Source: Proteromonas lacertae (lineage: Eukaryota). Taken from it: 64,000 bases of DNA. Below the pieces are notes generated by a model. The model was not told the DNA's origin, searched no databases, and was given only the letters and a program-made list of their open reading frames with translations. Every line of letters starts with the position of its first letter. Position 1 is the first letter of the stretch. The stretch covers positions 1-64,000 of the forward strand of contig NGBS01000602.1 of NCBI GenBank assembly GCA_002245135.1, given 5' to 3'. Made by a program: the position numbers and the translations under genes. This document shows positions 4,032 to 61,526 of this stretch, in pieces.

Positions 4032-4180
4032 TTATGTTGAAGAAGGGGGTATGAAAATATTCTATTAAAAAACCGCTAATTAGCATATTCGCGCTTCAAG
4101 CTTCAAACCATAAAATGCATGAAACGGATATAAAATCTTAATTCTAACATTTTATTGGATATCTAATAATCATAATAATC

Positions 4181-4927
<747 letters not shown>

Positions 4928-4970
4928 ACAACAAAATGAAACAAAGAAGATTAATTAAAATTATATTGAA

Positions 4971-5828
4971 TTAAAATCCAGATACTCTTTTTTTATAGGG
5001 TAGTATTATTGATTGAGGCACTAACATACAACTATAATCAAAGGTAGTAGGAAACTTATTTTCTTCAGTGCATAAACTAAGACAATCTTGAGCTCCCCAA
5101 TTAATTAACTCTAGTGTGTGATACTTACCGCTATTCGTTTGAAATACTAAATCTACAGTAAATTTTTCATTATCTTTATCTGGGTTGGGATCTTTACTTA
5201 TATCTAAATGAGGAATTAAGTTATTGATAAATCTTGACATTTCACCATTATCACATTTTGTTGTTAGATCAAAATGTAAAATTGTGCTACTATTTTCCTT
5301 AAATTTGTAATAATTTAATATATCTATTTTCAAGTATTGCTCATAAGCTTCAAATCTTGTATAAATGTATTTTGTTAAGGAAGTAAGTTCACCATTTAAA
5401 TACATGTATAATCTATCATCTATTCTCTTTATTAATTTATTCTCATCATCTCCTTTATGTGCATCATACAATTTCTGTGTAAAATTCCATACAGAGTCAT
5501 TGAGAGTATATGGATCACCTAAATATGTTCCTATATCACTAATTCCACCAGCTGTTGGATCATTTGATATTTTTTCATCGATAATTCTTAACAAATCATA
5601 CATGCTCTCTTCATATTGATCTAATTTCGTTTTACCAATAACATTAACAACACTTTTAATTGATTCAGCATGACTAATAGTTGTTACATCAATATCTTCT
5701 AGCATTTTTCTAATTGTCTTATCACTATCATCTTTCTTACCTAAATTGTTTGTTATCGTTATAATAGACTTAGTTATAGCACCTGTATCTATTGAAACAG
5801 CTTGTTTTTTTAAGGGACCACCAAACAT
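4971..5828 (-). CDS. Viral protein starting MFGG-P (candidate protease-matured virion protein)
   Basis: Likely start is ATG 5828, because the longer ORF overlaps the ATPase. MFGG fits the (M/I/L)xGG adenain consensus. Confidence 0.7.
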   Translation of the reverse strand: MFGGPLKKQAVSIDTGAITKSIITITNNLGKKDDSDKTIRKMLEDIDVTTISHAESIKSVVNVIGKTKLDQYEESMYDLLRIIDEKISNDPTAGGISDIGTYLGDPYTLNDSVWNFTQKLYDAHKGDDENKLIKRIDDRLYMYLNGELTSLTKYIYTRFEAYEQYLKIDILNYYKFKENSSTILHFDLTTKCDNGEMSRFINNLIPHLDISKDPNPDKDNEKFTVDLVFQTNSGKYHTLELINWGAQDCLSLCTEENKFPTTFDYSCMLVPQSIILPYKKRVSGF

Positions 5829-5877
5829 AAAATATAATAAAAGAATGATAAAAATTAAGTTACTAGCATTATGAGGA

Positions 5878-6726
5878 TTATTCTGAATCATCATCAGTAT
5901 CGGACGAATCAGAGGAAGAAGAGGAGGAGGAACTAATGCTGGTATTTTCATTATCACTTTTATAACCATTACTATCGTTTTTAATTTTCATATTAAAGTT
6001 TACACGAAATTCATGATTGCACAAATCGATGTAGAGGAATGAATGATTACTGTAGTTAGTTGCATACTTGTAATATTCTCTAAACTTACTGAAATCTACC
6101 CACAAATCTAAACTATTATGAACACTGTGTAGATTAGCTAAACTTAGATTTCTAAATACTAAGCAATAATCTAATTGTAGACGAACAGATGGTGTTAAAT
6201 CTGTAACATATTGACTTGATATAATTACTTTTGACTTGTAATGACGGTTTGATTTGAGTAGTTTTGAAACGGTCTTATTTGATAAATCGAATGATATATC
6301 ATCGAATATAAAGATATTTTCAGGATAACTATAATTGTCTTTATCAACATCTGTGATATTATTCAATACTGCATCTAATACATTCACTTTATCTTCATTT
6401 ACTATTGAATTGTAACAATGGTATTCTATTAAATTGTACTTCAGCATATCAGTGATCTTTTCATAAATAATATCCTTTGAAATTGTTCCTACAAAGAAAT
6501 ATACAGTTTGATCATAATTCTTCTTTAACAAGTGTTGTATCATGTTAAATATAAGCGTTGTCTTTCCACTGTTCTTCTTAGCTAATATAAATATATTGCA
6601 GAAAGGCTCTTCAAAATAATCATAGCCTAAAACAGTATCTCTTGATCTCTTTTTATTACCTTTGACTACTGATTCTACTGGCGTTATGACAACGTCATTA
6701 CATTTCTCTAGTTTTATTTTACTCAT
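5878..6726 (-). CDS. A32/FtsK-HerA family genome-packaging ATPase
   Basis: Walker A variant FILAKKNSGKTT, Walker B IFIFDD, and the NRHYKSKVIISSQ (Arg finger/Gln sensor) motif typical of Polinton/PLV/NCLDV ATPases. Confidence 0.93.
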   Translation of the reverse strand: MSKIKLEKCNDVVITPVESVVKGNKKRSRDTVLGYDYFEEPFCNIFILAKKNSGKTTLIFNMIQHLLKKNYDQTVYFFVGTISKDIIYEKITDMLKYNLIEYHCYNSIVNEDKVNVLDAVLNNITDVDKDNYSYPENIFIFDDISFDLSNKTVSKLLKSNRHYKSKVIISSQYVTDLTPSVRLQLDYCLVFRNLSLANLHSVHNSLDLWVDFSKFREYYKYATNYSNHSFLYIDLCNHEFRVNFNMKIKNDSNGYKSDNENTSISSSSSSSSDSSDTDDDSE

Positions 6727-6790
6727 TTAAAGAAAAAACAAAAAAACAATTATATAAAGAATATAACCATTATGTTAGTTATTAGTTAGT

Positions 6791-8248
6791 TTAAATAACG
6801 CTTACAATTCCACTTCCATTGATTGTACACATTCTTCCTGTAACTATATAGAAACGATGAGTGATATTAAAGTTAGTGAAATCATTTGTACCAGGAGTAG
6901 ACAACTCAAAAGTGATCTTTAAGTCACTAGCTAATGGTCTTCCTGATTGATTCTTGATATTATCCAAGTCTTTAGATCCAAAATTCAAAATTTCAAAGAA
7001 CTTCTTTTCAAAAGGAATATGTCTTTTGAATATATCAAACCATGAATCTTTGAAATAATCTTGTATAGTCATGTAACTATCATAATACTGCATTAATGAA
7101 TAGTCTGGTTGATACACAAAATCGTTAATCATCCATCTGAATTGTGCATTTTCAGGAATTACTGCATATCTATTTTCTGCTGTGCCACCACTCATATCAT
7201 GTGCTGTTTGATTTCCTTCGATCCATGGTCTATAGATAATGTAACGCAAGAATGGTCCATTTGAACTGTTTAATGTAAAGGAATAGTTAAATTGTCCAGA
7301 TCCACCTTGATTTACTGTTAATGTATGGCACTTTACATCATTGAACTGGATTGGTTTAGATAAACAGTAACTTCTTGTATTGTTATTACATTGAGTATCC
7401 TTATTCAAATAAGTATAGAAATAAAAGTTCTTGAATTTAATTGAATCTGGTCTTATTCCATCTGCAGGCCAGTTTATAGTTGTTTCAACACCTTTATCAT
7501 TATAAAAACCCATAATTTGTCCAAATTTAGGAGTTTGCTGGAAATTGAAACATAAATACATTCTCTCTCCAAAGAATACATCACTTTTCATTGATAAAAA
7601 TGTATTGTAAAATTTACCTAAAAACATCTTTACATGAATAGTATTAGACTTCTTATACTGTTGATATTTATCTGTTGTTCCAGTAGCTGTAACAAATGTA
7701 GCTTCTTCTTTATCCATTTCCCATTCATTTTCATCAAGAATTAAATGATCATGGTATTCATCATTCCATTTTAATTGAATTCCATCATAATAGTTTGATT
7801 GGTAAAAAATGTCTGATCTTTTTCTCACTAATTCATCCATAAACACTCTATAGTGTTCATAATTGTCATCAAGCTTTACTAGATCTGTTCCTGTATTATT
7901 ACATAAACGAAATGCTGCTAATCCAAATCCTTCTTTCATTCCTTTTATATACTTTGGATATAACTCACCACTAGCTGCTACTTTACCACAACCATCAATT
8001 TTTGCAAATGCATTTGCAGCAGCAAGTGGATGAGTTTCAATTTCGATATCATATTGAATGTAAGACTTTGCAAGGTTTATAATGTTCTCACCACTTAATT
8101 CGAACCTTATTTCATCTGAATAAGTATTATCTTTAAGTTGATAGAATGATTTTGTTTCCATTGGTGTCAACTTGACATACTGATAAAAGGCCATCATTGC
8201 TGGAACGTCTACACCGTGTTTTTGCTCTTTTGGGATAGTTAGAGACAT
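6791..8248 (-). CDS. Major capsid protein (double jelly-roll, Polinton/PLV type)
   Basis: ~485 aa from ATG 8248. N-terminal EIRFELSGENIINLAKSYIQYDIEI pattern, beta-rich, located between the penton and ATPase genes. Confidence 0.82.
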   Translation of the reverse strand: MSLTIPKEQKHGVDVPAMMAFYQYVKLTPMETKSFYQLKDNTYSDEIRFELSGENIINLAKSYIQYDIEIETHPLAAANAFAKIDGCGKVAASGELYPKYIKGMKEGFGLAAFRLCNNTGTDLVKLDDNYEHYRVFMDELVRKRSDIFYQSNYYDGIQLKWNDEYHDHLILDENEWEMDKEEATFVTATGTTDKYQQYKKSNTIHVKMFLGKFYNTFLSMKSDVFFGERMYLCFNFQQTPKFGQIMGFYNDKGVETTINWPADGIRPDSIKFKNFYFYTYLNKDTQCNNNTRSYCLSKPIQFNDVKCHTLTVNQGGSGQFNYSFTLNSSNGPFLRYIIYRPWIEGNQTAHDMSGGTAENRYAVIPENAQFRWMINDFVYQPDYSLMQYYDSYMTIQDYFKDSWFDIFKRHIPFEKKFFEILNFGSKDLDNIKNQSGRPLASDLKITFELSTPGTNDFTNFNITHRFYIVTGRMCTINGSGIVSVI

Positions 8249-8279
8249 CAGAAACTCAAAATAAAAAATAAAATAAAAA

Positions 8280-9245
8280 TTAGACTTTAAATACGACAAT
8301 ATCTAAATTAAACTCGATATTATCAAGATTGAGTTCATAACCATTTTGTTGAGTAATCTGAATAGTAATTTGACCATTGGTATAAGTATTATTGAACATT
8401 TTGCTAGTATTAAGAATGTCATTGTTCTGGTATGTAATGAATGGTAACTCAGGGTTTGCTATTGGTATATTTTCTAACACATTTGAATCTTGAATAATGT
8501 TTACAATATCTAAACGAATGGATATTGAATTAACCCATATAAGTGATGGACGATATGGTAATTGAGTAAATGGGAAATCTACTGAAAATGCAGCTATAGC
8601 TTTTTCTGTTCCTTGAGGTCCTGGAACAAATTTATCATAACATAACCAATAGTTATTATTTGGAATACCTAATATCTTGTAGGCTAAATCTTTTGTTACT
8701 ATTTCTATTTCTGTAATCCAGAAAATAGGTTTTGTTAAACTATATAATGCATTCATTTTACTTGCAATTTTTAAATGTCTGGTATGTTCATCATCTTTAT
8801 CATCTAGCTTAAATAAATCACCATTACCTTCTATTACAGGTGTATATAGCATATCCTTAACTATAAACAAATCATCATCAGGAATTTCAAAATCTAAATA
8901 TTTTATTGAACGTATTCCATCATTGATTAACTTAATAATCTGATTCTCATCATAAAAACCTTCAGGAATTTGTACTGATACACATACTGTGGGTTTTTCT
9001 GGCGCTGCGCCATCTTCTTTATCATAATCACATGTAAATAAGAACTGAAACGTATCGTTTGTCTCTGCTTGTATAGTAGGGAAAGAATTAGGGACAACTG
9101 CGTGTAATAACGACACATGAGTATAATCTTGATCAAATGATGGTAAGGCTAAGGTCTTTTTGTATCTATTCCCTACTCCGAATGTCCCTGTAGTCATTAC
9201 CATATCAGAATTTAAATAGTATACACGGTGATTAGAGACTAACAT
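8280..9245 (-). CDS. Minor capsid protein (penton, single jelly-roll with insertion)
   Basis: ATG 9245. YYLNS...VSLLHAVVPNSFPTI at the N-terminus and ITIQITQQNGYELNLDNIEFNLDIVVF at the C-terminus match the PLV/virophage minor capsid pattern. Confidence 0.85.
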   Translation of the reverse strand: MLVSNHRVYYLNSDMVMTTGTFGVGNRYKKTLALPSFDQDYTHVSLLHAVVPNSFPTIQAETNDTFQFLFTCDYDKEDGAAPEKPTVCVSVQIPEGFYDENQIIKLINDGIRSIKYLDFEIPDDDLFIVKDMLYTPVIEGNGDLFKLDDKDDEHTRHLKIASKMNALYSLTKPIFWITEIEIVTKDLAYKILGIPNNNYWLCYDKFVPGPQGTEKAIAAFSVDFPFTQLPYRPSLIWVNSISIRLDIVNIIQDSNVLENIPIANPELPFITYQNNDILNTSKMFNNTYTNGQITIQITQQNGYELNLDNIEFNLDIVVFKV

Positions 9246-9308
9246 TTTGATAAAAAATAATAATGTCAATATTGGTAATATTAGTAATATTGACACTATT
9301 TTTATTTT

Positions 9309-9932
9309 ATGGAAGATAATAAAAAACCTAAACATAGAACAGTTCCATTCAAATTAACAGAATTAGACAAACAAGTAATCATCAGAAGCTTCAGAAAAGA
9401 CGGTAAAATCAGAGCTCCCACAAAATCGAAATTATATCATTTAATTTCAGGATCAAAATCAAGACTTACATACTCAGAGATAAGATATATATTGAAATAC
9501 ATCGAAGATGAGTACAAATATTACATAGAATCAAAGTTTAAGACAGGTTGTTTTAATGGACCAATCATTGAACAAGTAAAAGTACCTCTTAACGCGCCAA
9601 AACTAACCGCTTCAAGCTTCGCTCAAGCCTTAAGTAAACACAAAGAACACAGAATTGCAGGTCAAAAGAAGACAAGAATGATGTTAGAGCAGATTTTAGC
9701 ATTACATAAGAAGGAAGAAGAGGATGTTTTACCTCCACAAGAGATAATTGACATAAAAGATGACGAAATTAAGGTAAAAGAAGAGGTAAATTACGTAAAA
9801 CCTGTCACAAAATCGAATGTAAACAGTTTAAGTGGTTTAGAAGACTTGTCTCCTGTTAACTCAGTTCCTAGTTTAAGTCCAAAATCAATAACAGATAAAA
9901 GCATTATAAGACCTAATTGTATTATTTTTTAA
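9309..9932 (+). CDS. Viral basic hypothetical protein
   Basis: Intact 207-aa ORF, divergent from the penton gene. Confidence 0.7.
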   Translation: MEDNKKPKHRTVPFKLTELDKQVIIRSFRKDGKIRAPTKSKLYHLISGSKSRLTYSEIRYILKYIEDEYKYYIESKFKTGCFNGPIIEQVKVPLNAPKLTASSFAQALSKHKEHRIAGQKKTRMMLEQILALHKKEEEDVLPPQEIIDIKDDEIKVKEEVNYVKPVTKSNVNSLSGLEDLSPVNSVPSLSPKSITDKSIIRPNCIIF

Positions 9933-33960: not shown

Positions 33961-36900
33961 ATGATATTATATCAGTATTTTCTATTATTGTTACTAATTA
34001 AATTTACTACACAAGAATAGTATATATTAATACATTTAAATCATAGTTTGTCGTGTGACAGAGACAGTATTAAAGATTCAATAGATGTTGCTTACTCAAA
34101 CATTGTAAGTCGATTTACAGATTATTTGAATATTATACAACTGCAGTCAGATATATTGACAAAGCATCCAGTAATTACTCCTAAATTTCTTGTTAGTGAT
34201 TTTGTTCAGTGTAGTACAAGATTTCCAGGATATTTAAATATATCTGAACAAAAATCAGGTCAATATGCAATTATGTATATGCCAGACCCAGCAAAAGGAG
34301 ATTGGGATAATACCAAGAAACAAGAAATGCTAAACATCCTCAGTAGTGCAGATACAACTTTACATTTTCTTCAAAAGATGTTAGGAAGTCCAGCCAATGG
34401 AATAACATTAGGAGATTCTCCCTATATTGATATGACATGGCCTAGAAATAGTATTAACCCAAATAGCTGTGATTATGGTTATGGCAATATCTGGCAGAAT
34501 GAGCATTTCCTGTGGGCTTATTATGGGAATGAAGAGAATAATCCTGAAGGAATACCTTATATAACTCCGCCGTATGTAAGTAGTATGTTAACTACAGGAT
34601 TAACACGAATGATGACTTTATGTGCATTAGTTAAAGATAACAATGGTAAAAGAATAGGAATAATCAGTAGTGATATGTTATTGGATAATTATTTCAGTGA
34701 AATAATTGAGAAATATCGACCAACTGATAATAGTCATATTGTCATAGTTCAATCTAATGGAACAATTGCCTATACATTGAATGAAACAATAAATATATTC
34801 TTTAAAGAAAAATTAGATGATTCTATCAGTTATACTGATTTATATAATACAAAACCATTGCAAAATCAATCCGCTGAGTTTAAACGAATATATGAATTGT
34901 TGTTATTGAATAGAACCACTGAAAATGGAACAATTCATGAATTCAGTAATAAGCAGATTGATATGATGATAAATGATGAAATGCATATAGTAACTTGGAG
35001 TGATTTGATATATGACACATTTTATTTATTATATTTAACACCAATAACTGATTTAGAACAATTGGCTTCATGGAGTGGTAATAAAAACATTTTAGTGTTT
35101 AGATATAACACTGGAGATGAATCTGCACAAGCTGAAGTAGGCATCACTAACAATGGTTCATTACCTATCTCATTAGCATTAAGAAAACCATTAATTGGAA
35201 GTATATATAATACAAATATTGATGAATTATATGAAGTTCAAAAAGGTGAAACTTATAAATTTAATATTACTGCTAATCTAAGTCAATGCTATAATGAAGG
35301 TAATATAGAAGCAGGAGGTTATTGTGTATTGCCATTTGTTTCCATTCATAATCCCCATCCGAATACTGGAAGATGCTTTCATGATATTTCATTTAATTCA
35401 ATAGGAATGTTAAATGATTGTAAATTAAGTGATGTTGGATTGGAATTTCAGAAATGTAAAGGTACAGATTTGCCTATTAGAGTATTTTATAAACAGCCAC
35501 AATTATGTACAAAAGGTCTTGAAATACCTGATGAAGATGTAAATATTCCTTGCGATAATATATCAAAATCATGGCTGTTTTATATACAAATTGTATTTTC
35601 AGTAATTACAGTTCTACTCTCCTGTTTTATATTTATAATTTTTACCTTGCGAAAGTTTTTATGGGTTGCTTTAACCACTCAAAGAACTTATATTTTATCA
35701 ATTGGTTTAGGGTATATCATCTACACTGTATCTTGTCTTGTATTGACTGGAACTTCAGGTGATGTTAGTTGTTGGATTGGTTTGTATTTTTATTATTTAG
35801 CTAATGTTTTTATTTCATCGTATATATTTACATATTATTATTATATGTATAGTTCAAATTATTGTATAACACATCATACATCAGAAGAGGAAATAAAGAA
35901 GAATATGGTTTTAGAAAGTGATTATATATATTATTTAAAGCGATTTGGAGTGATATTCTTAATAACAGCAATTCTATCAGCTAGTTTGAATCAAAATACT
36001 TTTGTATATGAATATGATAGAGAAGGAATACCAATATTCTATGAATCATGTGGAGCTGAAATTCTGAATATCACATTATCTTTGGGTTGTTCATTAATTG
36101 CCTATTTTCTATCAATAATTGATTGTTTTAAATTACTAAGAATCAAATTAGAGCTTAAAGTATTAGTAATGATACTTGGTTTATTAATTGGTAATTGTTT
36201 ATTTATTGTATTAAACTTATTATTTGCATTACATGCGATATCATTTAGTAATGCATTAATGGTTGTTGTATTTTATATAGTAATATCAGTATTGTATTAT
36301 ATCATTGTGCCTTCATTACTCCATATTAAAATCATTAATAATAGTAAAACAGCTGTAGTTGGACCATATGCTACAATTAATGGAACTTATACTGCGATTT
36401 TAGCAGATCCAATCAGTAGATATTGTTTAATGTTTCATATGAGAGATTTGCATTTGGAGGAGAATATTTATTACTTTTTAGATTCTATAAAATTCTATAA
36501 ATATGGTAATAATCCAATGTGTAATTTGAAGAAATTACATGTTTATGCACAAAAAATAATTGACAGATATATAAAAGATGGTTCAAAGTATCAAATCAAT
36601 ATAAGTTCATCTTTGAAATCAGAGATATTGAAATCCTATAATGTTGCTAATCCAGATGTATCAATGTTTGAAAAAGTAGATCAAGAAGTATTCCATTTAA
36701 TTGTGCAAAACTGTGGACAGTCATTTTTAGCCAGTATTCATGCGACAAAAGCAAAAGATTTGATGAGATGGTTTAATGGGTTTGAACAAATGAATCCTGA
36801 GTTACAAGATGCTGTAGTTGAAAAGATAGTTGCTTATCGAGAAGAACAGAAATTAAAGAATGAAGGTGATGATGATGGAAAAGGCCAGAATTCTTCTGTA

Positions 36901-37236
36901 TTTAGTAGAAATGAAAGTTCTGATTTAGCTTTCCAATCTATTCAACATATGAATCCATCAGCTCCAAATACGATCATGAGAACTTCAAATCAGCCTGGTG
37001 GTAGTAGTAACAGTAGTAGTGCTGGTGCTGTAAGAATAACCAATTATGCATCACATGCTCACTTACTTATGAGTGATTCTTGTAGATCTATACACAACAC
37101 AATGAAAATAACCAATACTAGTAATGTTCCTACTCCAGGTAATATTACTGCTGCTTTGAATAATATTAAAGAACCAAGTGCTGCTTCTTCAAAGTTGAAT
37201 GATACAATCTCACCTGTTGAGCCTTTCAATAGTTAA
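33961..37236 (+). CDS. Cache-domain 7TM-RGS receptor-like protein
   Basis: Signal-peptide exon 33961-34019 and 27-nt intron. Cache-like YITPPY...IGIISSDM, ~7 hydrophobic helices, RGS box (EENIYY...IIDRYIKDGSKYQINIS). Confidence 0.8.
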
Positions 37237-48382: not shown

Positions 48383-51300
48383 TTATTGTTTTGTTGAAGC
48401 ATTTTTCAAAGTTAAATAACCTCGAGTATGAGTCATTGTTCTAGAAGACATTAATAAAGACTGACCTCCTGCTGTAGATGTTGAAAACGTATTTAATACA
48501 CGATTTGTTCCATCAACTTGACTTCCTGAATCAGTTTCTCTTCCTCCATCTTCACTTATATACAAATTCACTAATTTCATTCCATATTGAGTAATACAAA
48601 GTATTATCACCATTATTTGAATTCCAATTCCTCGAAATATCAATACACTGTCTGGTTCATTGTTAATATTAAAATCTAAAGCTATTAATACTATTCCTAA
48701 AATTGGTAAAATAATTAAGAGAACTATATAAATAGATTATTAAAGAAAGAAAAAAAAAGATATTAGTTATAATTGAGGATAAAAATAAACTTAAAGAATC
48801 ATTAAATTCATTTGCTACATATTTTGAATAATAGCTCATATATAAAAACAATAAACACATTATTCCATCAATTGTAAATTCGATTATTGTAAATGGAGTT
48901 GAAATTGTACATTCTCGAATATATTCGTCAACAAAATAAGAACTATATTTTTGACTGTATACTTCAATATATTCATTTGGATCAATATATCGCCATAATA
49001 AATGCAATATTACTTCTATCACAATTCCACCAAATATAAATATTAATAATCGCAATAAAGAGATTTTACTTTTCAATATTGAATAATTTCCACTTCTTCT
49101 GGCTTTTGAAAATAATTTTGTACATTTACATAACATTGTCATTATATCTAATTTTGAAAATAAACCCAACAACAAAGTTCTTGTCATACAAATATCATTA
49201 GATTCGGATGGAAATATACCAATTGGAATAGCTGATAACGATGTACCTAATAACAATATCGATAAAAACAATGAATAATATCTTCCAAAATTTCGAATTA
49301 TCTTCTTATTTCGATTAATTATTGTAAATATTAAACATAAAATACTCAATAAAGAAGATAATCCCATCAATACCCAATAGATTGAATATAATACACTGTT
49401 ATACTCATAATACTCATTCCGTTTTCCAAATTTACATACAGATGGAGTATCAGATGCATATGGATGGCTTTCTATATTCAATACACTCCCTCCACGATAT
49501 GGATGGATTTGATTCAAATCACCATTCCCATTGATTTCTAATAAATAAATACTTCTTTCACTATAACCATCACTTCCAACTACTAAATCACCTGATGGAA
49601 CTGAATTTTCACTTGATATTATATTCATTATTTCATAATCTAAGGATGGTAATGGAACACCTTCGTCTTCAGATCCTTTTCTTATTGAATTTTCCCATAT
49701 GTTTAAACCAATTTTTACTGCTTCAATCTCTTCACTAATCACACTATTTACACCTATATTATCTTGAGTATCACTTATATAAGATTGTGGTAAAGCAGAT
49801 TGTAATACTGGATGAAAACTAACAGATACCCAAGAACCACTAAATGGAGATAAATCATAATTTATATAATCATAATAACTGTAAGTAACAAACAACAATA
49901 TCATTTCTCGAGTATATTTTCCAGAGTTCTTTAATAAATCTAAAAATTCAATACTTCTTTTACCTCTTAAGCAATAAATTAAACCAATTTTACCTTCTTC
50001 TGTTTGAATGTTATTCAATCGAGACATTAATGTGTTTATTGTTTCACTTGTGAAAACTTTATCTTCGATTAAACTTCCTTTCAATGATTGAGAATATTTT
50101 TCTTTTAAATAATTTGAAGCTACATTTTGTATTTGTTCAGATTCTATATTCTTTTCTCCTACTATATAAAATAGACTTACTGATTGTTCTATCGCATAAT
50201 CTATTGAGATTTTTAATCTTTGATAAACTGTTGTACCAATATTTATTACATTCTTACTACAATAATTTCCTTCAGTTTGACCTGAATATATAAACACCTT
50301 TTTGGTCTTTTCAGCATGTTTTCTTGCTGCTTCTCTACATTCTATACTTCGACATCCAATATAGGAAATAACCTTTGCATCTTCATCATATTGACTTAAC
50401 TGATAATCAAAATCTTCACTCGAATTACCAAATATATAAATACCCATTACATCATTGTTATTTATCTTATTATAATTTATTTCTTTAATCATTGTTTGTT
50501 CTTCTAAATATATTGGTATTTCTCTAGCTTGATTATTTGCTTCATGTAAAAATATTATCTTAATTGAATCTAACTCATACTTATCTCCTTTATCTGTCCA
50601 ATCACAAGTAAAACCAACATTTTCCTCCAAATTCTGATCATATGCTTCTCCTTCTTCTGGTTTAGAAGCATAATTCACAATGGCTATTGATTTCTTTTCT
50701 ATAACAACACCATAATACATTACACGACTAGCAAAACCATTTACATTCATTTCTAAATCACCTGTTGGACTTCTATACAAATATCCATACATTCTTTTTC
50801 TGGCTAATTCAATATCAAATGAATAAGTGTTTTCTATTACATCTGCCCATAGTTTAACTGATGTATAACCAGCTTCCATTGCTGCAGATAATTGAATATC
50901 AGCTCCATAACTATCCATCATATTTGAAACAAATTCTTCAGTTGATTCTATAAAAGTACCTTTAGAGGATGATGATTTTCCCATTTCAGTCATAAATGTA
51001 GTAAAGAAATACATTCCATTAACACATTTTTCATCTAATTGATCTAATATACGTTGATCTAAAGTAGTTACAACAATAGTTGATGTTTTACCTGTTATTC
51101 CTCTTGCACATAAGTAGGCAATACTTGGCGGAATTCCATCTGCACCAACACTTAGTATAATTGCACTTCTTTTCATTACTTCATTATCTAATTCATCCAT
51201 TGCTTGAAAATCAGTTGTGTTGTAAGGTCCATGTAATATTGATTGTGTCATTTTTATTTTACTTACTATAGATCTTGTGCTTATTGTTGAATATGGATTA

Positions 51301-54300
51301 GTAGGTACTTGTACTACAATATATTCATTATGATTCTGTAATATAAACTTCTCAAACGTATGAGTAATTTGACTTGTTGTACTTTGTAATGAAAACGTAT
51401 ATTTACTACAGAATTCACCAGCTGAATTACCTGGATAAAAGAATGGTGTTGCATATTTGTCAAATATTGGAGCTAATTTCAATTCAATTGCATATCTTCC
51501 TGTTCCAAATACAGCTTTTACTTCATCTAATTTTCCCAATTCTTTAGCTAAAAGAAGATAATTATCATCATTCGATTGTGGATCTCTTATTTCAATTTGT
51601 ATTTTTCTTTTCAATACACCACCTTTTTGATTGATTTCATTTATACCTTGAATTATACCATCAGTCATTGCTCGTTCAGTTACTTCGAATTTACCACTAA
51701 ATGAGTTTAATATACCAACAGTTACTGATTGATCTTTCTGTTGAGAACCAATTGTATCTTGACTGAAATCACATATATAAGTACCTGAATTAATAAACTG
51801 TTTGAAAGGAACTGGTTGAATAGGTGTAGAAGAACGATAAATAAGATCAAACCCAGTACAACTACTATTCATTCTACCAACAGATAAGAAATGGCTTAAA
51901 TAATTATTACCATTCATTTTAATCACTCCTTCTGGTGATTGATAATCATAACCATACATTTCATTTTTAATTACTGATGAATTTGTTGAATTAGTATGCA
52001 GAACAGCAATTGCCCAAATATTGAACATAGAATAAGAACTACTAACTAATTCAGTGATTGGTTCTGTAGTTGATGTTCTTACTAAATCCTCAAATGTTTT
52101 GCTTGAATATACTATCTCTTCTGATTGCCTATTGATGATTAATGATGTTAAAGTTGTTACACTTTCTGGGAAATAACTTTGAGCTGAATAAAACTGAGAA
52201 ACTCCTGAATCAATCATATTTGCACCTGTTGAATAACTATAAACAGGATATTTCTCAAATGTTAAACCACTTTTTCTGTAAGAAATATCAAAATTTTTAT
52301 GATTTGTTTTTGTTCCAAAGAACAGAATTGTACATCCATTTGTACACTTTGATTTGATTTCTTTTGCTATTATATCATAATTAGTTTCCTCTGGTTTAAC
52401 TGTAACAGAATAAAGAACTTCTACTTTCTTAAAATTCAAATATTTTTGAATATAATTAATTGAATCAACAGAAAAATCATCTGTATTTCCAACTATTGAA
52501 TACTTCATTGTAACTGGTTTATCTGTTCTTAAATAAACATTAATCATTCTATCAAGCGTACTTGGTTCTCTTCCTCCATAAAATACATTCTCCATGCAAG
52601 TTTCACCACTTATATAACCAATTGAAATCACAGGAATATCATCTGGTTTAACATATTTTGCTACTGCATCAATACATTTTTGAGAAGATGTAGTGAAAAC
52701 AACATCATATTTTGATTTTACTAATTGAGATTTGATATTATCAAAACAAGTAATATCAGATTCTATATCAACACTTGTTAAATACAACTGTTTATTCAAA
52801 ATACCATTATTATTATCATTATATGCATTAACCAAAGTATTTAGTATAGATTTCACACCAATATCATAATCAGCAGAACTACCAGTTTCAATAACAGCTA
52901 ATAATATCCTCAAAGCAATTAAATTACCTTTACTACCAATTAATGCATTTGACCAATCACAAACATATCCATAGCTTGAAGGTAAATCCCAATTCCATGC
53001 CATTGGATTAATAGCATTAGATTGTGTTGTTATTATTTCAATATCATGAGTATGTGGTATTAACTTTCCCATTTGCATATATAATGACGCATAATGATTA
53101 GTTTTGATTGTCACTGGACCATATGATGCATTTACATCAATCCCATATACATATGGAGATAAATCATTGTGTAATAATATTCTGGGTGATATTTTTCTTA
53201 ATGTACTTATCCATGCTTTGATTGCTAATAGACAAGCTTCACCAAGCATTGTATTATAAGATCTACCAGAATATTTCTTTGTGACTGCTTTAATTCCTTC
53301 ATCACTTACATCAGCTTCATCAAAATAAGTAGATGATAATAACAAATCAAATTTGCCAGAAATGGAAATTCTATTGATTATATCTCTATCAATTGCTGGA
53401 GATATCACATCATACATTCCAGATTTCTGGATATTGTTCTCTAATTCATTTAAACATGTGATAAAATCACCAGCAATGAATGTTGGATAAAATGTACCAC
53501 CTTCTGGTGTATCTTTAATAGCTTGTCTTATTACATTTCCTACTTCAACCATAGAATCAAAATTATATGTATAAATCTTAAATCCACTTGTCTCTAATTT
53601 ATTCTTCATTATAGTAAACATTATATTTGACCAACTACGATTATCTCCTAATAGAATAAGTGATCTGCTTTTTGTACTTTGCCTTAATAAATAATTAGTT
53701 ATTGCTTCTAAGAATTGATTAGCAATTGGACCTGTATAAAACACATTTTCAAAACACTCTTCACCTTCAAATATTGTTGGATACCATAATGTCATATTAT
53801 TCTCAGATAAAATAGAAGCAGCTTGAATTCTACATTCATTAATATAACAACCAATAATCAATGAAGCATTATCTTTAACTATATTGTTAATACCTTCAAC
53901 ACTTCCTTCTACTGTACTTTTACTATCATATATTTTATAATTCAAATAATAACCAGATACTCCTCCTTTATTATTAATATCTATGATATAAGACACAACT
54001 GGGTCTATTTCTGTATATTCAATCTCTCTATAAGCACCACTGATTGATACTAATAAAGCTACTAATAATGTTGGTTCAGAATACATATCAGTATTGTATT
54101 TATTCCAATTACAAACATAATATTTTGTTGTATCTTCATAATAATAATGTCCATCCCAAGTATTCGCTGAGTAAGTACTATCATAACTATATACCATTTC
54201 TCTAACATATTTATTATTCTTTTTGCTAATTTTTGTTAATGAAACTCCAAAAGACATATGATTACTTGAGTCTATATGAATTGAATATTCAGGTGCATTA

Positions 54301-57300
54301 ATATTTGAAGCACAGGCATACACTTCTTCGAATGTATATCCTATAATAGTATTCATATTATTCTTATCCTCATCATTAGTATGTTTTGTTTGGTTTAAAA
54401 ACATTAATGTAAAGTGATTGATTAATATAGAAAAGACAACACCAGAATGAATAGTGTTTGTAGTTGAATAAGCGTATTTGTCTATTAAATATGAGTGAAA
54501 TATTGATCCTTCCATATCTAAAGCATAATTCATAGTATAATCATATTCCCAATAATAATGTCCATTCATTAACTCCATATTCTCAAATACAAAATTTCTA
54601 CTTAAATATGTATTAACAATATGATATTTTTCACCATCTGTATATTTCTTCCTATGCATTTCTTTCAAAAAGTCAATTGCAACAAATGAATCTAATAATG
54701 AGATAATTGTTCCACTTGACATTTGACTTACTATGAAATTAACAATTTTGTCAATCTCATAATTTTCGATTGGTACTTCAATGGATGAAATGATATTCAC
54801 TCCTCTTTCTTTCAATCTATTTGAGATAGAATAGAAATTAGTTTCATCTTTCAAAGTTGCTGAATATACAATCACTATATTTCTTCCTAATTCACTTATT
54901 ATGTATGGTATATAGGCAAAATTTGCAGTGAATGGAACACCAGTATATATAATGTTTTTATTACATTCCAATCCTTCATAATCGATTGGATAATATAATA
55001 AAGCTCCTTCTTTTTCAAGGGTTGGAATTAATGCTTTTCTTGTCTTAGAATCATAAACACCAAACAATATTCTTGTTTTATACTCAATCATCATTGAGTG
55101 TAAATCCTTTTTTATCTTTTCAACATCATTTTCTGTATCATATATTATTGGTTGATAATATCTTGATCTTTGCATAGAATCAGCAAAATCAATTGCTATT
55201 AAAAATGATATTAGCATCTCTTCACCTTCTAAAGAAAGTTCACCTGTCAATGGAACTAGTAATATCAATGGAGTAATTTTTACTGAAACAACTTCACCTG
55301 ATCTACATATATCATTTGAATCTTTCATATTGAGAAATTCTCTGAAACTATCACTTGGATAATTGTCATACAATTTTCTAATAATCTCAAAATGAGACAT
55401 TTTATTTTCATCATTATTATCACTTTCATAATCTTCCAACTTTCTTATCATATACATTGGAATATTAGCATAATTATCTTCTCCTACTTTCACTGTAGTA
55501 ATTGAAGTCTTAAATGCTTGACTATGCAAAACATCTCTCAATGATAACTCACTTCTTATTTGAATAGCATTTCCTAGTAGTTCAAATGTAATTAAAATAG
55601 TACTCTCTTCTTCATTTAAGTATGTATTTTCACCATAAACACTTTCAGCTATTGAATAGATCATAGGAGATGTTGATTTATCAATATATCCACTACTTCT
55701 ACATAAATGACCTATGCTAATATTATTTGGTATTCTATTGAATAAATCAATTGAATTTGTTACTATAACATAATCAGATGAATAATCTTTTGATGTATTG
55801 CAATTATTATACATTGGAGATAAGACTTTATACACTGTTTCATATACACTTTTAAACACTTCATATACTTCTAAATAATTAATAATTACAAGACTATCTG
55901 CATTATCAATCTTTATTTTTGATAATTCTTCATATATTTGTTGTATTGCAATTTCTTTATCTGTTTCATTGACTAATATAGTATTACTTATTTCACCATT
56001 ATATGACTCTATTGTATCTTTCAAAAGTCCTAATTCTGTTAAGTTACTATAATATGCAGGAACAACTAATAAAAAGTCATGTGAGTATTGATTTATTAGG
56101 AAATTCACCATTGGAGCAGTTCTTTGCAATGGAGATGTACTAGTAAATATTACTTGATTAAAACATTGATCTGAATCTTCATTCTTCACTGCAAATATTA
56201 CAGCTTTTCTTCTGATTAATATATCTTCAAAACTTCTAATGTTTTTACTTCCACATTGTGTTATTGCTAGTGATACATCAGTTCGATTAATGAATTTTGT
56301 TATGTTTTCATCATCATTACAATTAAATACATGCAATTCCTATAATTAAATAATAATATATAAAATATACAAATAATTTACCATTAGTACCACCATTAAC
56401 ATTATAAAGACTAATATATCTGTCTAATAAATAAGAATAACTTTCAACAGATTCATCAATATATAAACCAACTGGATATATTGAAGCAACTTGTTTATCT
56501 GCTGAAACACTATAATCATAAGTATATTGAACGCTATTTACACCAAACTATAAATTTTAATAATTAATATATATACATCATAAGAAATTGGATACACATC
56601 TAAAAGACTAGTAGGTGACAAGACAATCTCATAATCATTATCACCAACACATTTTAATAAATAAATACTAATCATACACATGTTTGAATCACTGACAGAT
56701 ATTTTTCCACCTGGTAAATCTAAAGATAATCTGTAGATTTCATCTCTAACTGTATCACTATCAAATGAACTTACTGTTTCAATTGCATTTCGTAGAAACA
56801 TAAGTGATTGATATCTATAATATAAAAATTATTAACAATTAGTATATATATATACATATTAATTGACACTTCTGTTGCTAAATATTTTGATTCACCAAAT
56901 TTAGTTTCAATGAAATTTTTAGTAATTGTATTAATATTGCTATCTATTTTATATACATAAGAACTAACAAAATAATAACCTTTATAAAGATCAGGATCCT
57001 TTGAATGAGTTACAAATGCACATAAAATATCAATCATATACATTGGATATGCAATACTTGTCATATTCTTTTCTTTTAAAAACACTATCATATCTTCAAC
57101 TTTCTTTTCTATCATAGTAATAATACCAACTCCTTTAGGATAATCATCTTTGATTCTATCGACTGTTGTATTTATATTTTCGATTGTTTTGATTGGATAA
57201 TACTTACATTTCATTGATATTCTACTATTGCAATATTTATCAATATAATCTACAATCACATCGTTGGATCTATTATAAAATTACTTTAATATAATATAAA

Positions 57301-60217
57301 CATACTTTAATGATGAATCATAAACAATAGCGAAATCTTTCACTGTCCTACTTTTATATCCAAAAATAACGTTAATATAATGAGCAGGAATTCTACTCAT
57401 TTGTATTATATTCTCATTGCTATATTCACCTTCACTTGGAAATACATCAAACAACAATTTATGATGTTTTGATAAATAAGGTGCTACAATATCTCTTTCT
57501 TCATTAGTAAAGTCAAAATTAAGGTATTGATATATAAAAAAACAATAATAATAAAAAGATATTTTGCAGTTCCAAAGAATGCAACAACATCTTCATAATC
57601 TATACTATCCAAATACGATTTCAAATCATTTATATTGCCTAAATGAGGCATAATTCCTTTAATAACTTTACCATCTATCCCACCATAATTTTCATTCAAT
57701 AAATTGATCATTAATGTGAAATACTGTGTATAATATTCATCATAATCTTTAGTTATTTCATTTCTAATATGTAAAAAAATGATTCTAGAAGTTTCTCTTG
57801 TAATAACATTTCCATCATCTATCCAATCACATCTCTTTGATAAATCACTATAACTGTAACTTAGTGGAATATTAAATCCATCATCTAATAATTCAATTTC
57901 ACCATTTCCATTGATTTTTCCTAATTTTATTTGTGCAATACTAAATCCTTCATTATTCCAAGATATTTTACCACCAGGACCATTATAGCTTGCATAACCC
58001 ATTACAGATTTAATGGCATTTATATCATAAGAATATACAATATTAACTGCATTTGCTAGTAAGAATATTTGACTATAACTAATAGCCATATTTGAAGTAA
58101 TAACTGGATCTTCACCATAAACATCTTTTAGCTTTTTTCTTAATATATCTGAAGTATCATCTCTAATTGTATTGAAATAATAACCCATTACATATTGATT
58201 TTCAAACTATTACATAATAATCATATATATATATATATATAATACATATGTTTTATTAGAATTAGCTATCATTCTTTCATCTACAGTAAATGCTAATACT
58301 GGATATTTCTCAGGATCAAGTTCTTTTCTTTTATAACTTTCAAAGAAAGGAATTTGATATTCCATATCACATACATCCACTACTAAACACTCAATATTCT
58401 CACAACTCTTCAATATACTACTACAAGCTCCTTGGCTTGGCGCAGAATCAGCAAACATTAGTGAATACTCACCTCTCAATGTTAATCTTTCTTGAGCTAT
58501 AATATATTTAATTGCACTATATCCTTGTTGACATAACAGTGTATTGCATGTTAATATAAATATGTTAGTGTATTGCTTAAATAATGTATGAATACCTCTT
58601 GATAAATATGTATTGAATGGTATATCAGCATTCATTATATATTTATTACAATATTCTCCTCCTATTGGTGCTATATTGATATAGAGTAAATTCATAAATC
58701 CAAAATCTATTAATATATATATATATATATAACACAATCAAATATATACATTGAAGTAGTGTATCAAGATCATCGATTGTTGCATATATTAAAACAGCTG
58801 CTATTTTGAACTGACTTGAATATCGAATAAATTGATTTCCAAATTCTATTTTACCCACTGCAGAGTCAATTAATATTGGAACAATTGGTTTACCCATAAC
58901 AAGATTCTATATATATATATATAAATTAAATAATAATATACTTCTTTATTTATAGTATCAATTGCAGTTAAAACAGCAATCAAACTTTGGCTTGACAAAT
59001 ATCCTTTTTCTTTCAAACCATAAAATGATAATATAATAAACAATCCATCTAATGGATAATAGGGAGGAGAATTTAATATATTACAAGTCATATTTATTGG
59101 ATAACCTGTAATTTGAGCTGTTGGAGTATTTGTTAAATCACCAACAACTATTTCCATATCCTTTTCCAATACTACAGATGCTGTACTATCTACTTTTCCA
59201 ATGAATATATTACTGATTAAATGATTGCTTTTAAGCAATGTATAAGATATACCCAATGATTCAGTAACTTTACCATACAGTTCATAATACAATAGATTAA
59301 GTGTCAAACCACTTTTTGCCATATATTTTTGACTGAATAACTCCAACATTTGATATCTATAAAAAGTATAGAGAAGTAAAGAAATATAAAATATACAATA
59401 ATATTTCAAATGAACTAAAAGTATATGGAGAACTATAACCCAATCTTGTAGCTAATTCATCATCATCAATAAATAAAAATTCACTTGCAATATAACTTTT
59501 ATCATAATCAGCTGGAGTATCCAAGACAGTTTTTCTATCTAAATCAAAATGAATTAATTTATAATTATCAGTAAAAATAGCTGTAACATAACCTGCAATA
59601 TCTGATGCTAGTTTAGGATAAAAGTTATATATAACAAAACTATCTTTACCTATTAACGATTTAACTTTCTTCAAATGGTCTTCCACTTCTGTATTTAACG
59701 GATCTGTTTTTAAAAATGTAAAATCACCATTATTAGCATATTGAGTTAGAAATACTTTCAATTGAATATTACACGCATCGTCTGGTCCAAGGATAATATT
59801 CTGTCTGTACCTGCTCTTTAACTTGTCAATTACTAAAAATTTCGAATGACAACTATCAAAACCATAAGCTGTGTGAGATGTGCAAGAAGTGTGTGTAGAT
59901 GGAGCAATATTTATGGATGCTTGACCATAATCATTAGCTACACTATTTAACAGATCTGGAGATATGTTTGGCATGTAACTATAAACAAATTGATAATCTC
60001 TAGATATGTGTGAATAGGTAGTATTAACCTCATCAATATTCGATTCATCAACGTTTGCATAATCTACTTCAAATGCTGTTGTCTGTAGGGATGAATATGA
60101 GGTACATAAGGTATTAAACATTGTTTTTAAGTTTAAATCTGCATTTATAAATTTCACTTTTATTTTGGCTAATGCCAATTCTACTACTATTATCAGCAAT
60201 ATAAATAAATTAAACAT
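48383..60217 (-). CDS. Giant class-C-like GPCR with ~9 tandem UrtA/AmiC-type periplasmic-binding domains (spliced)
   Basis: Signal peptide, ~390-aa repeats (GILNSFSG..EINQKGGV..VFG..YP..EG.EC..N..Y.G..CDW), then a 7TM region (ICMTRTLLLGL, LWRYIDP, EFNDS). Confidence 0.85.
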
Positions 60218-60287: not shown

Positions 60288-61526
60288 ATGTTATCAATAT
60301 ACTTTTTATCAATTATATTATCAATTTCAATAGTAATATGCGATGATAATGTATATTCTTCCTTTAAACCACATAAAGTATATTCTCATACTCAGACCGT
60401 TGAGTATTTGGAGTTTTCTAATGTATGCTTAGGATTAAATCCAAGCAAAAATGTGATAATATATTTTGAAAACCCAGAGGAAGAAAGATTTCAGATTTCA
60501 CTGTTAAAATTATATAGAAGTTTTTTTGAAACTACAAATTTTGTATATAAGTATGGATCATTACCAAATACATCCTTTGTACAATCTGAGAATGTGTGGG
60601 TGATAAGTCAGTATGTAAAAAGACATATAATTCATTTTATGGAGTTATATATGTCTTTATGGTTTTATAATAATGAATATGATATGCCTCCAATTGACAC
60701 ACTTATAAATCTTGTATATTTACCAGAGAATGATCTTGATTTTAATTATTTACTATATAAACTATTAATAAACAATCTAAAATCCAAAACCAATATCTAT
60801 GAAACAGTATATATAAACAAAGTATTAAGAAAATATAAAATGTTATGTTTTAAACATATTAATCTATTCTTGAAACATGAAACAATCGGATTATTTACTT
60901 GTTTCAGTAATAAGAATGAACATATAAGATTTCGAGATTATATACTTGATGAATTAAAAATGAAAAGAAAGATCGAATCCTCAAAAATAAGAAGAATCCG
61001 AGTTGGATTAATAGTTCGAAATGAAAATGAAAAACTACAAAATCGAAATATCTTAAATTTGAATGAAGTATATAGATTAATAAAAGCGAAATGTAAAAAT
61101 GTAGATGAAATTTCAATAATCTCATTTGAGAAACTAAATCCAAAAGAACAAATTAAAGAAATAATGAAATACAATTTAATAATCTCTCCTCATGGTTGTT
61201 CTTTGTTTAATATGATTTGGTTAATCGAAAGAAAAGTGATGATAATCGAGATATTTAATCGATATTTCATAAGACAAGAGTTATTGAAACAATCAATATC
61301 ATATGAATATCATTATATTCCAATATTTACAACTCAACAGATATATTCAAACGAACAAGAATATGATTATTATGATAATCCGTTGTATTATATAAAGAAT
61401 GATTTAATTTGTAATGGATTTGCTTGCCTTGGTATTAGTTTTGATCGAACCAATTATGATATATATGTAAATCTTCGAGTTTTATCCTTTAGTATAGATT
61501 TAAGTATAAATTATTTAAATAACTAA
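60288..61526 (+). CDS. Glycosyltransferase family 61-like
   Basis: Signal/anchor; RNILNLNEV, FEKLNPKEQI...IISPHGCSLFNMIWL. Confidence 0.8.
   Translation: MLSIYFLSIILSISIVICDDNVYSSFKPHKVYSHTQTVEYLEFSNVCLGLNPSKNVIIYFENPEEERFQISLLKLYRSFFETTNFVYKYGSLPNTSFVQSENVWVISQYVKRHIIHFMELYMSLWFYNNEYDMPPIDTLINLVYLPENDLDFNYLLYKLLINNLKSKTNIYETVYINKVLRKYKMLCFKHINLFLKHETIGLFTCFSNKNEHIRFRDYILDELKMKRKIESSKIRRIRVGLIVRNENEKLQNRNILNLNEVYRLIKAKCKNVDEISIISFEKLNPKEQIKEIMKYNLIISPHGCSLFNMIWLIERKVMIIEIFNRYFIRQELLKQSISYEYHYIPIFTTQQIYSNEQEYDYYDNPLYYIKNDLICNGFACLGISFDRTNYDIYVNLRVLSFSIDLSINYLNN

What the first reader, a model, noticed from the sequence alone, without database searches (positions are those of the whole stretch)
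48383..60217. Giant GPCR with about nine tandem bacterial urea/amide-binding (UrtA/AmiC-like) modules
Seen: ~3,800 aa after splicing. Modules recur every ~1,150-1,200 nt, most ending in a C-[DN]-W-type linker (~57825, 55305, 54110, 52957, 51770, 50602, 49432), followed by a class-C-like 7TM. The best modules follow UrtA closely (VFG..., LYYPIDYEGLECNKNIIYTG, YPTIFEGEECFENVFYTGPIANQ, PMAWN...GYVCDWS). Established: class C GPCRs carry one Venus-flytrap domain, and UrtA/AmiC are bacterial urea/short-amide binders. Inference: a laterally acquired binder was amplified and diverged into a multi-ligand nitrogen-sensing antenna, a receptor type I do not recognise as described.
Basis: partly seen in the sequence, partly recalled or inferred. 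Interest (0 to 1): 0.87.

Follow-up and report, generated by a model that had tools for sequence, protein, structure and literature searches.

The report
Nine-flytrap GPCR from cyanobacterial urea binder
A protist gene is predicted to encode a 3,808-residue surface receptor with nine bacterial urea-binder-like domains in a row ahead of a class C GPCR membrane domain; relatives with the same nine-domain layout keep the urea pocket and are likely urea sensors, whereas this copy has lost it and likely senses other small molecules.

Summary
The architecture is real. Eleven predicted exons (ten introns of 29-58 nt, two U12-type AT-AC) give one open 3,808-aa protein: signal peptide, nine tandem UrtA-type (Peripla_BP_5) domains, a GABA-B-like 7tm_3 domain and a Ser/Thr-rich tail.

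It is not a local amplification. Three compositionally very different proteins (P0007, P0178, P0179; 3,745-4,080 aa) are single ORFs with nine modules plus 7tm_3, and 31 related low-GC representatives were found. The inter-module linker matches the C-terminal Cys-Asp-Trp tail of cyanobacterial UrtA, pointing to a cyanobacterial-type donor.

The relatives keep all five core urea-binding residues in 8, 7 and 5 of nine modules, never in the membrane-proximal one. The window's nine modules keep only 0-2 of five, so urea/amide sensing by this protein is not supported. It is more likely a re-specified chemoreceptor.

Caveats: no RNA evidence; the tree alone cannot fix where the long-branched window modules sit (AU p 0.575); ligand and G-protein coupling are untested. 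Ten literature searches found no description, though a generic Peripla_BP-7tm_3 pairing has been tabulated. Verdict: a new, striking variant of class C GPCRs.

The parts
48383..60217 (-). Whole gene, 11 predicted exons: 60217-59397, 59356-58942, 58906-58750, 58706-58246, 58206-57563, 57506-57306, 57269-56856, 56814-56577, 56547-56371, 56339-48764, 48705-48383; 3,808 aa
   Evidence: junctions collinear with the single-ORF homologs P0018 and P0014
60167..60217 (-). Predicted signal peptide (hydrophobic N-terminus, about 17 aa)
   Evidence: hydropathy peak at aa 1-25; no dedicated predictor run
59077..60166 (-). Module 1 (most diverged UrtA-type domain)
   Evidence: 34 bits vs shuffle maximum 6.4, 0 of 200
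57823..59076 (-). Module 2
   Evidence: 152 bits; ends in C-D-W
56530..57822 (-). Module 3; lacks both paired cysteines, as does slot 3 of P0018 and P0014
   Evidence: 164 bits
55299..56529 (-). Module 4; split by intron 9, so it ties the 5' exons to the long exon
   Evidence: 75 bits
54105..55298 (-). Module 5
   Evidence: TIGR03407 E 3e-20
52953..54104 (-). Module 6
   Evidence: 8HIC UrtA E 1.5e-28, full length; TIGR03407 E 4e-30
51765..52952 (-). Module 7
   Evidence: TIGR03407 E 1e-22; AlphaFold pair model
50598..51764 (-). Module 8; among the best-conserved slots in close relatives (90/75/40% to P0001/P0008/P0002), with a non-urea pocket identical to P0008's at 9 of 9 positions
49428..50597 (-). 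Module 9, membrane-proximal; urea pocket absent in every family member examined
48554..49409 (-). Class-C-type 7TM (7tm_3), joined to module 9 without an NCD3G domain
   Evidence: Pfam E 5e-20; best PDB hits GABA-B2/B1; seven hydrophobic peaks
48386..48553 (-). Ser/Thr-rich cytoplasmic tail (about 56 aa)
   Evidence: sequence
57507..57562 (-). U12-type AT-AC intron 5 (ATATCTTT donor, CCTTAAT branch-like site)
   Evidence: restores the frame and the Gly-x6-Arg spacing of UrtA; collinear with P0018 and P0014
48706..48763 (-). U12-type AT-AC intron 10 (in TM6)
   Evidence: gives a gapless TM6 against 7 of 7 homologous 7TMs, whereas the AT-AG alternative left a 6-residue gap against P0014

Best explanation
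The gene is predicted to encode a class-C-type G protein-coupled receptor whose ectodomain is a chain of nine UrtA-type clamshell domains, likely inherited from an ancestral urea-sensing receptor and likely re-tuned in this lineage to small molecules other than urea. Steps. (1, shown in sequence) Signal peptide, nine modules, 7tm_3, Ser/Thr tail. (2, inferred) A cyanobacterial-type urtA was acquired, fused to a GABA-B-like 7TM and multiplied to nine copies before the lineages of P0007/P0178/P0179 split; UrtA's own C-terminal tail, probably pinned by a disulfide, became the linker. (3, predicted) Neighbouring modules pack rigidly, so closure of a distal clamshell could be passed along the chain. 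(4, inferred) The membrane-proximal module, pocket-less in all members examined, acts as the coupling element to the 7TM, and the distal modules are the sensors; in the relatives 5-8 urea sites would give avidity or a graded response. (5, inferred) In the low-GC lineage the gene family multiplied, each slot diverged and the pockets changed, giving a chemosensory repertoire with unknown ligands; module 8 is the best candidate active site. (6, untested) Output is through heterotrimeric G proteins.
For: One ORF with homologous single-ORF support. Slot order matches P0018 (p 1/40,320). Nine modules in the window, P0018, P0178/P0183, P0179 and at least nine in P0007. Pocket table: all five core residues in P0178 modules 1-8, P0179 modules 1, 2, 4-8 and P0007 modules 2, 3, 5-7; module 9 has 0-1 of five in every row; window modules 0-2 of five. 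30 of 32 cyanobacterial UrtA loci examined have both the GQEC cysteine and the C-[DN]-W tail. Both cysteines are present in 44 of 53 low-GC and 25 of 33 GC-rich array modules, against 15 of 87 bacterial/other rows. Array modules form a 33-row clade (SH-aLRT 99) inside the cyanobacterial UrtA clade (96). AlphaFold of modules 7-8 with a 30-row alignment: pLDDT 90.7, pTM 0.91; the top 10 Foldseek rows are urea-binding proteins and AmiC. Low-GC modules cluster by slot. A dCache-7TM-RGS-like gene in the same window suggests G-protein signalling in this organism.
Against: No transcript or protein evidence. No ligand known for any window module; pocket identity to paralogs is mostly no higher than whole-module identity, which also fits relaxed, ligand-blind domains. 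The AU test did not reject a tree with the low-GC modules outside the cyanobacterial/eukaryote clade (p-AU 0.575; the constrained tree was 2.7 lnL better). Slot correspondence between low-GC and GC-rich arrays is not significant overall (10 tests, p 0.024-0.44, two under 0.05; pooled 0.062), so the shared 'nine' could be partly convergent. The 7TM has drifted: the A-K-T-W-R motif after TM3 and the P-K motif of TM7 (both seen in P0007; their class C role is recalled) read C-K-C-T-K and M-K here. The genome was not available to look for G-alpha genes. A high pTM is a prediction, not a measured interface.
Confidence: 0.52

Rival explanations
1. The nine domains of this copy are ligand-blind. The ectodomain is a long, rigid, glycosylated stalk for adhesion, protein or surface contact, or mechanical sensing, still coupled to the 7TM.
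For: All nine pockets are degenerate; pocket positions are mostly not more conserved than the rest; 22 N-glycosylation sequons in the ectodomain; fold and cysteine pairs kept while pockets drift; many divergent relatives (31 representatives), as in surface-protein families.
Against: Module 8 is 75% identical to P0008 with 9 of 9 pocket positions identical while other slots fall to 33-54%; slot identity is kept across the family; relatives keep real pockets in the same layout.
Confidence: 0.24
2. The protein is a signalling-dead or partner subunit (like one half of the GABA-B heterodimer) that works only with a paralog.
For: 7TM closest to GABA-B2/B1 in the PDB; TM3-end and TM7 motifs altered against P0007; many co-existing relatives.
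Against: P0179, with seven intact pockets, also lacks the TM7 proline; a Ser/Thr-rich tail is kept; no coiled-coil tail was seen (not tested with a predictor).
Confidence: 0.11
3. One reading: this protein itself senses urea and short amides with its nine modules.
For: Best sequence and structure matches are UrtA and AmiC; Tyr141 and Glu146 equivalents survive in modules 5 and 6.
Against: Ser122, Gln144, Tyr190, Asn246 and Trp120 mutations reduce or abolish urea binding in UrtA (PMC10392092); the window's modules keep 0,0,0,2,1,0,0,0,1 of these five; module 6, whose alignment to 8HIC is unambiguous, keeps none.
Confidence: 0.1
4. The region is several genes or an assembly artefact.
For: No RNA data; two of ten junctions need U12-type introns.
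Against: Five and a half modules plus most of the 7TM lie in one stop-free exon; the introns fall inside modules; modules are only 9-20% identical, so not a repeat-assembly error; P0018, P0014, P0007, P0178 and P0179 are uninterrupted ORFs of the same layout.
Confidence: 0.03

Closest known systems
GABA-B receptor subunits (class C GPCR without NCD3G)
   Same: 7tm_3 domain (best PDB hits, E 1e-4); type I clamshell ectodomain joined to TM1 by a short stalk
   Different: One ANF-type flytrap versus nine UrtA-type domains; the flytrap is of separate, bacterial ABC-transporter descent (GABA-B first appears at rank 21 in Foldseek); ectodomain of about 3,460 aa
Cyanobacterial UrtA (ABC urea-binding protein; PDB 8HIC, 7S6E, 7S6F; TIGR03407)
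   Same: Fold, length, GQEC-type cysteine and C-terminal C-D-W tail; full urea pocket in relatives P0007/P0178/P0179
   Different: UrtA is a monomeric single-domain transporter component (PMC10392092); the window's modules are 17-23% identical to it, far below the family cut-off (57-114 bits for modules 5-9 vs 492.75), and lack the pocket
AmiC amide receptor of Pseudomonas (PDB 1PEA)
   Same: Same structural family; a binding protein used as a sensor
   Different: More distant than UrtA (E 2e-9 vs 1.5e-28); cytoplasmic and single-domain (recalled)
Non-canonical protist and fungal class C GPCRs (Peripla_BP-7tm_3, Bmp-7tm_3, OpuAC-7tm_3; anaerobic-fungal SBP type II GPCRs)
   Same: A bacterial-type solute-binding domain fused to 7tm_3 (PMC3971589 supplement lists Peripla_BP//7tm_3; PMC5168858 passages)
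   Different: In the text seen, no copy number, no UrtA subfamily and no tandem array is given; the fungal N-termini are 200-1,600 aa and type II
Bacterial UrtA-domain sensor kinases and cyclases (P0004, P0006)
   Same: UrtA-like domain co-opted as the input of a signalling protein
   Different: One or two copies, no C-D-W tail in those rows, histidine kinase or cyclase output

Membership tests
Class C GPCR | 7tm_3 heptahelical domain | tested here: met
   Pfam 72.6 bits vs cut-off 33.5; seven hydrophobic peaks; GABA-B best in PDB
Class C GPCR | Large N-terminal type I clamshell (Venus flytrap) ectodomain | tested here: met
   AlphaFold/Foldseek of modules 7-8; present as nine copies
Class C GPCR (canonical mGluR/CaSR/GABA-B) | Single flytrap of the ANF_receptor family | tested here: not met
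   Nine modules; Peripla_BP_5 443 bits vs ANF_receptor 38 bits
Class C GPCR (mGluR/CaSR/T1R branch) | NCD3G nine-cysteine domain before TM1 | tested here: not met
   No NCD3G hit; module 9 ends about 10 aa before TM1, as in the GABA-B type
Class C GPCR | Conserved TM3-end Lys/Arg, TM6 acid and TM7 P-K motifs (recalled) | tested here: inconclusive
   Lys and an Asp retained; Trp-Arg and Pro replaced relative to P0007
Class C GPCR | Obligate dimer and G-protein coupling | not testable with these tools
   No genome held; no complex prediction was run
UrtA (TIGR03407) | Score above the family cut-off of 492.75 bits | tested here: not met
   Modules 5-9 score 57-114 bits; the exon-10 part of module 4 has no hit
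UrtA (TIGR03407) | Urea pocket W120, S122, Q144, Y190, N246 | tested here: not met
   0-2 of 5 in each window module; 5 of 5 in 20 of 27 modules of P0007, P0178 and P0179
Cyanobacterial-type UrtA lineage | GQEC-type cysteine plus C-terminal C-D-W tail | tested here: met
   30 of 32 cyanobacterial loci; a cysteine at the tail position in 8 of 9 window modules
Cyanobacterial-type UrtA lineage | Phylogenetic nesting of the window's modules | tested here: inconclusive
   Nested with SH-aLRT 99/96 but exclusion not rejected, p-AU 0.575

The most novel reading that the evidence does not exclude
A so far undescribed, ancient eukaryotic receptor family exists in which a cyanobacterial urea-binding protein was concatenated into a fixed nine-clamshell chain on a class C GPCR. 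Members with up to eight intact pockets are dedicated urea-sensing GPCRs that count occupancy along a rigid chain and pass it through a pocket-less ninth module to the 7TM. A gut-protist lineage turned this scaffold into a large nine-slot combinatorial chemoreceptor repertoire, of which this gene is one member.
Probability: 0.4. Interest if true: 0.9.

Novelty: new variant of a known kind. Interest (0 to 1): 0.76.

Why it matters
Class C GPCR activation is understood as closure of one flytrap per subunit reorganising a dimer. A receptor with nine clamshells in series, in which the one touching the membrane has no pocket, needs a different way to pass the signal, and the recurrence of nine modules in very different sequences suggests a geometric constraint. 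The intact relatives give an immediately testable candidate for a urea-sensing GPCR (single 380-aa modules can be expressed and titrated like UrtA) and a ready scaffold for biosensors. The degenerate low-GC family offers a handle on how a probable gut protist senses its surroundings, a topic absent from the main text of the two Blastocystis genome papers checked.

Tried and rejected
No whole genome is held, so paralogs, G-alpha genes and urease could not be counted. No sequencing run was listed; this is no evidence on expression. Single-sequence AlphaFold of modules 7-8 failed (pLDDT 32) and was replaced by an alignment-based run. BLASTP of exon 1 against P0018 found nothing significant (E 0.19), and phmmer of P0018's first module did not rank window module 1 above shuffles; module 1 rests on the family HMM. 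An AT-AG reading of intron 10 was rejected for AT-AC on homolog alignment. Metagenome contig scans with module 6 and with P0179, and viral scans with P0070 and the capsid-like ORF, confirmed no locus, so the hosts of P0007, P0037, P0178 and P0179 are unknown. The AU test was inconclusive. ATATCYTT is not enriched in the window as a whole (24 vs 24.1 expected), so the U12 calls rest on frame and homology, not on motif rarity. Recent tandem duplication was rejected (modules 9-20% identical). 'Ordinary ANF domains' was rejected. Four answered look-ups of earlier scan findings returned nothing.
Full report
OBSERVATION. The region is about 25-29% GC and eukaryotic. On the minus strand a 2,556-aa stop-free frame (48669-56339) is preceded by a run of short frames. 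Pfam gives the long frame five Peripla_BP_5 stretches (443 bits), Peripla_BP_6, 7tm_3 (72.6 bits) and only a weak ANF_receptor hit (38 bits); three upstream frames also hit Peripla_BP_5. I joined the frames by hand at ten short AT-rich introns. Eight are GT-AG (29-43 nt). Two have no usable GT donor at the frame switch but carry ATATCTTT donors, branch-like sites and AC ends, i.e. U12-type AT-AC introns (57562-57507, 48763-48706). The result is one frame of 3,808 aa; in the first version of the model, retaining any intron gave a premature stop. Junctions 1-9 are collinear with the single-ORF homolog P0018 (5-9 also with P0014), and the AT-AC reading of intron 10 gives a gapless TM6 against seven homologs. 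The introns fall inside modules and there is one hydrophobic N-terminus, so this is one gene. No RNA data could be obtained.

MODULES. A family HMM finds nine modules. Module 1 is weak but real by shuffling (34 bits; 0 of 200 shuffles). The modules are only 9-20% identical to one another, which excludes a recent duplication or assembly echo. Module 6 aligns end to end with Prochlorococcus UrtA 8HIC (E 1.5e-28), ahead of AmiC (2e-9); none of the 7 PDB sequences matched at E 0.001 is an animal flytrap. An AlphaFold model of modules 7-8 built on a 30-row alignment has pLDDT 90.7 and pTM 0.91, so the relative position of the two domains is predicted with confidence. Foldseek ranks urea-binding proteins 1-6, AmiC 7-10 and GABA-B first at rank 21. 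The 7TM's best PDB matches are GABA-B2 and B1; there is no NCD3G domain.

IT IS A FAMILY. A search of 1.84 billion representatives with module 6 gave 934 hits, 150 listed. Among them are 31 low-GC-type multi-module proteins of 865-3,244 aa. Those inspected start or end inside a module, as expected of exon-sized ORFs; of the 22 hits scanned against Pfam, 8 carry 7tm_3. P0018 has a signal-like N-terminus and nine slots at nearly the same positions as the window protein. In a tree the low-GC modules group by slot, so the nine-slot chain predates this expansion. A second group is Ala/Gly-richer: P0007 (3,745 aa, Logan), P0178/P0183 (4,080/4,131 aa, ENA) and P0179 (3,909 aa, JGI), each a single ORF with nine modules and 7tm_3. 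P0178 and P0179 begin with signal-like peptides; P0007 starts inside module 1. P0037 (at least 3 modules plus 7tm_3) and the fragments P0016, P0027 and P0028 are N- or C-truncated. P0180, labelled Pfiesteria piscicida by EukProt, has four such stretches with ephrin-receptor-like repeats and no 7tm_3 hit. Caveat: one search covered only proteins of 2,059-6,554 aa and scored 1,991 candidates, so complete members with other counts may exist. Slot order is shared among the three GC-rich proteins (p 0.022, 0.005, 0.0004) and between the window and P0018 (p 2.5e-5), but is not demonstrable between the two groups (ten tests, p 0.024-0.44).

ORIGIN. These loci were the 29 new ones from 121 genomes of the phylum of G001 plus 3 of the 80. 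The two cysteines co-occur in 44 of 53 low-GC and 25 of 33 GC-rich array modules and in 15 of 87 other rows, and no bacterial/other row has the tail cysteine alone; slot 3 has lost both in three proteins. A disulfide is inferred, not observed. In a 75-row IQ-TREE (quick, LG+C20 PMSF; rows picked from 173 plus 14 cyanobacterial loci; the pocket-less and truncated GC-rich modules and window modules 1-4 and 9 left out), the array modules form a 33-row clade (SH-aLRT 99) within a 51-row cyanobacterial UrtA clade (96). The seven low-GC rows are long branches, and forcing them outside was not rejected (p-AU 0.575). A cyanobacterial-type donor is therefore well supported for the GC-rich arrays, and for the window protein rests on the shared tail, cysteine pair and architecture.

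LIGAND. In UrtA, Ser122, Gln144, Tyr190 and Asn246 hydrogen-bond urea and Trp120 positions Asn246; mutants lose or reduce binding (PMC10392092, parts 1-2 of 5 read). P0026 (Synechococcus UrtA) has these residues at the same numbers and served as the reference. All five are kept in P0178 modules 1-8, P0179 modules 1, 2 and 4-8, and P0007 modules 2, 3 and 5-7 (its truncated module 1 keeps all three visible); module 9 has 0-1 in all three. The window's modules keep 0,0,0,2,1,0,0,0,1 (alignments of modules 1 and 4 are uncertain). So the relatives look like urea receptors and this protein does not. Module 8 is 90/75/40% identical to P0001/P0008/P0002 and shares all nine pocket positions with P0008; elsewhere pocket identity is mostly no better than background.

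MECHANISM. Most likely (0.52): a class-C-type GPCR with a rigid nine-clamshell chain; distal modules bind, the pocket-less ninth couples to the 7TM; ancestrally urea, here other solutes. Rivals: ligand-blind stalk (0.24), partner subunit (0.11), still a urea/amide sensor (0.10), not one gene (0.03). Architecture and pocket states are shown; binding, chain coupling and G-protein output are inferred.

HOST. Very short introns, two AT-AC introns in one gene, low GC and a mild excess of TGTTTGTT (12 vs 5.8 expected; 0 of 100 shuffles) fit a Blastocystis-like gut stramenopile. Blastocystis has hundreds of short, mostly AT-AC minor introns (PMC10639083 and PMC5608401, passages), and some lineages have 21-23% GC (PMC12129017, passages). 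This is an inference; no taxonomic test was run.

WHAT IS KNOWN. Ten full-text searches were run. Those aimed at this architecture gave 0 papers (23: Blastocystis + GPCR + periplasmic binding; 66: Peripla_BP_5 + 7tm_3; 70) or listings with no such title (37, 65, 84, 94, 104; only listings seen unless named here). PMC3971589 (passages and a text search of its supplements; figures not seen, file 1 not searched) lists Peripla_BP//7tm_3 among glutamate-receptor architectures without copy number. PMC5168858 (passages) describes anaerobic-fungal class C GPCRs with type II binding domains and N-termini up to 1,600 aa. PMC12965686 (passages) describes a single GPI-anchored flytrap in Entamoeba. PMC5447177 (passages) mentions only cAMP/Frizzled-type GPCRs. 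The main texts of PMC5608401 and PMC12129017 contain no 'GPCR' or 'urea'; their supplements were not searched and could list these genes. The ESM Atlas returned only single-domain bacterial binders for modules 7-8 and single-flytrap 7tm_3 clusters for module 9 plus 7TM; it covers only large clusters. Subscription literature was not searchable.

VERDICT. Observation confirmed; interpretation partly supported. Fusing a bacterial binder to 7tm_3 is a known kind; a recurring nine-module UrtA chain with intact urea pockets in some lineages and wholly remodelled pockets in this one is, as far as these searches reach, undescribed. New variant of a known kind; interest 0.76.

Noticed in passing
window 2482-9932: Cluster of long, apparently intron-free ORFs at slightly higher GC, with a P-loop ATPase (5878-6726, weak PHROG terminase hit E 2e-5) next to 503-aa and 357-aa ORFs without Pfam or PHROG hits; the layout recalls a Polinton-like or virophage endogenous element (label recalled, not shown). 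A viral-contig scan found no relative.
   Followed up: partly
window 34021-37236 (+): A 1,071-aa frame with dCache_1 (below cut-off), a Cys-rich stretch, a hydrophobic multi-helix region and an RGS domain: a second unusual receptor, and a sign of G-protein signalling in this organism.
   Followed up: partly
window 57507-57562 and 48706-48763 (-): Two U12-type AT-AC introns in one ten-intron gene; P0001, P0021 and other relatives end in a similar Ile/Phe/Tyr-rich read-through near the same TM6 position, suggesting a conserved intron there.
   Followed up: partly
P0038, P0067, P0070 (535-543 aa): AT-rich-type proteins with N-terminal membrane helices and one UrtA-type domain fall inside the eukaryotic array clade; contigs up to 34 kb. 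Possibly giant-virus genes (guess); a viral-contig scan with P0070 found nothing.
   Followed up: partly
P0180: EukProt protein labelled Pfiesteria piscicida with alternating intact and pocket-less UrtA modules, ephrin-receptor-like repeats and a hydrophobic C-terminal region with no 7tm_3 hit; it sits outside the array clade, possibly an independent recruitment of the same domain.
   Followed up: partly
P0178 about aa 3063-3170: Module 8 of P0178 carries an insertion of about 100 aa, and a Cys-rich segment lies between module 9 and TM1, unlike the window protein.
   Followed up: no
window 60288-61526 (+): Glycosyltransferase family 61 gene head-to-head with the receptor gene, start codons only 70 nt apart: a probable shared promoter.
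   Followed up: no
P0004, P0005, P0006, P0029, P0035, P0036, P0181, P0182: Bacterial-type proteins in which UrtA-like domains are fused to histidine kinases, cyclases, HEAT/STAND NTPases or Ser/Thr kinases, some with two copies flanking the NTPase.
   Followed up: no
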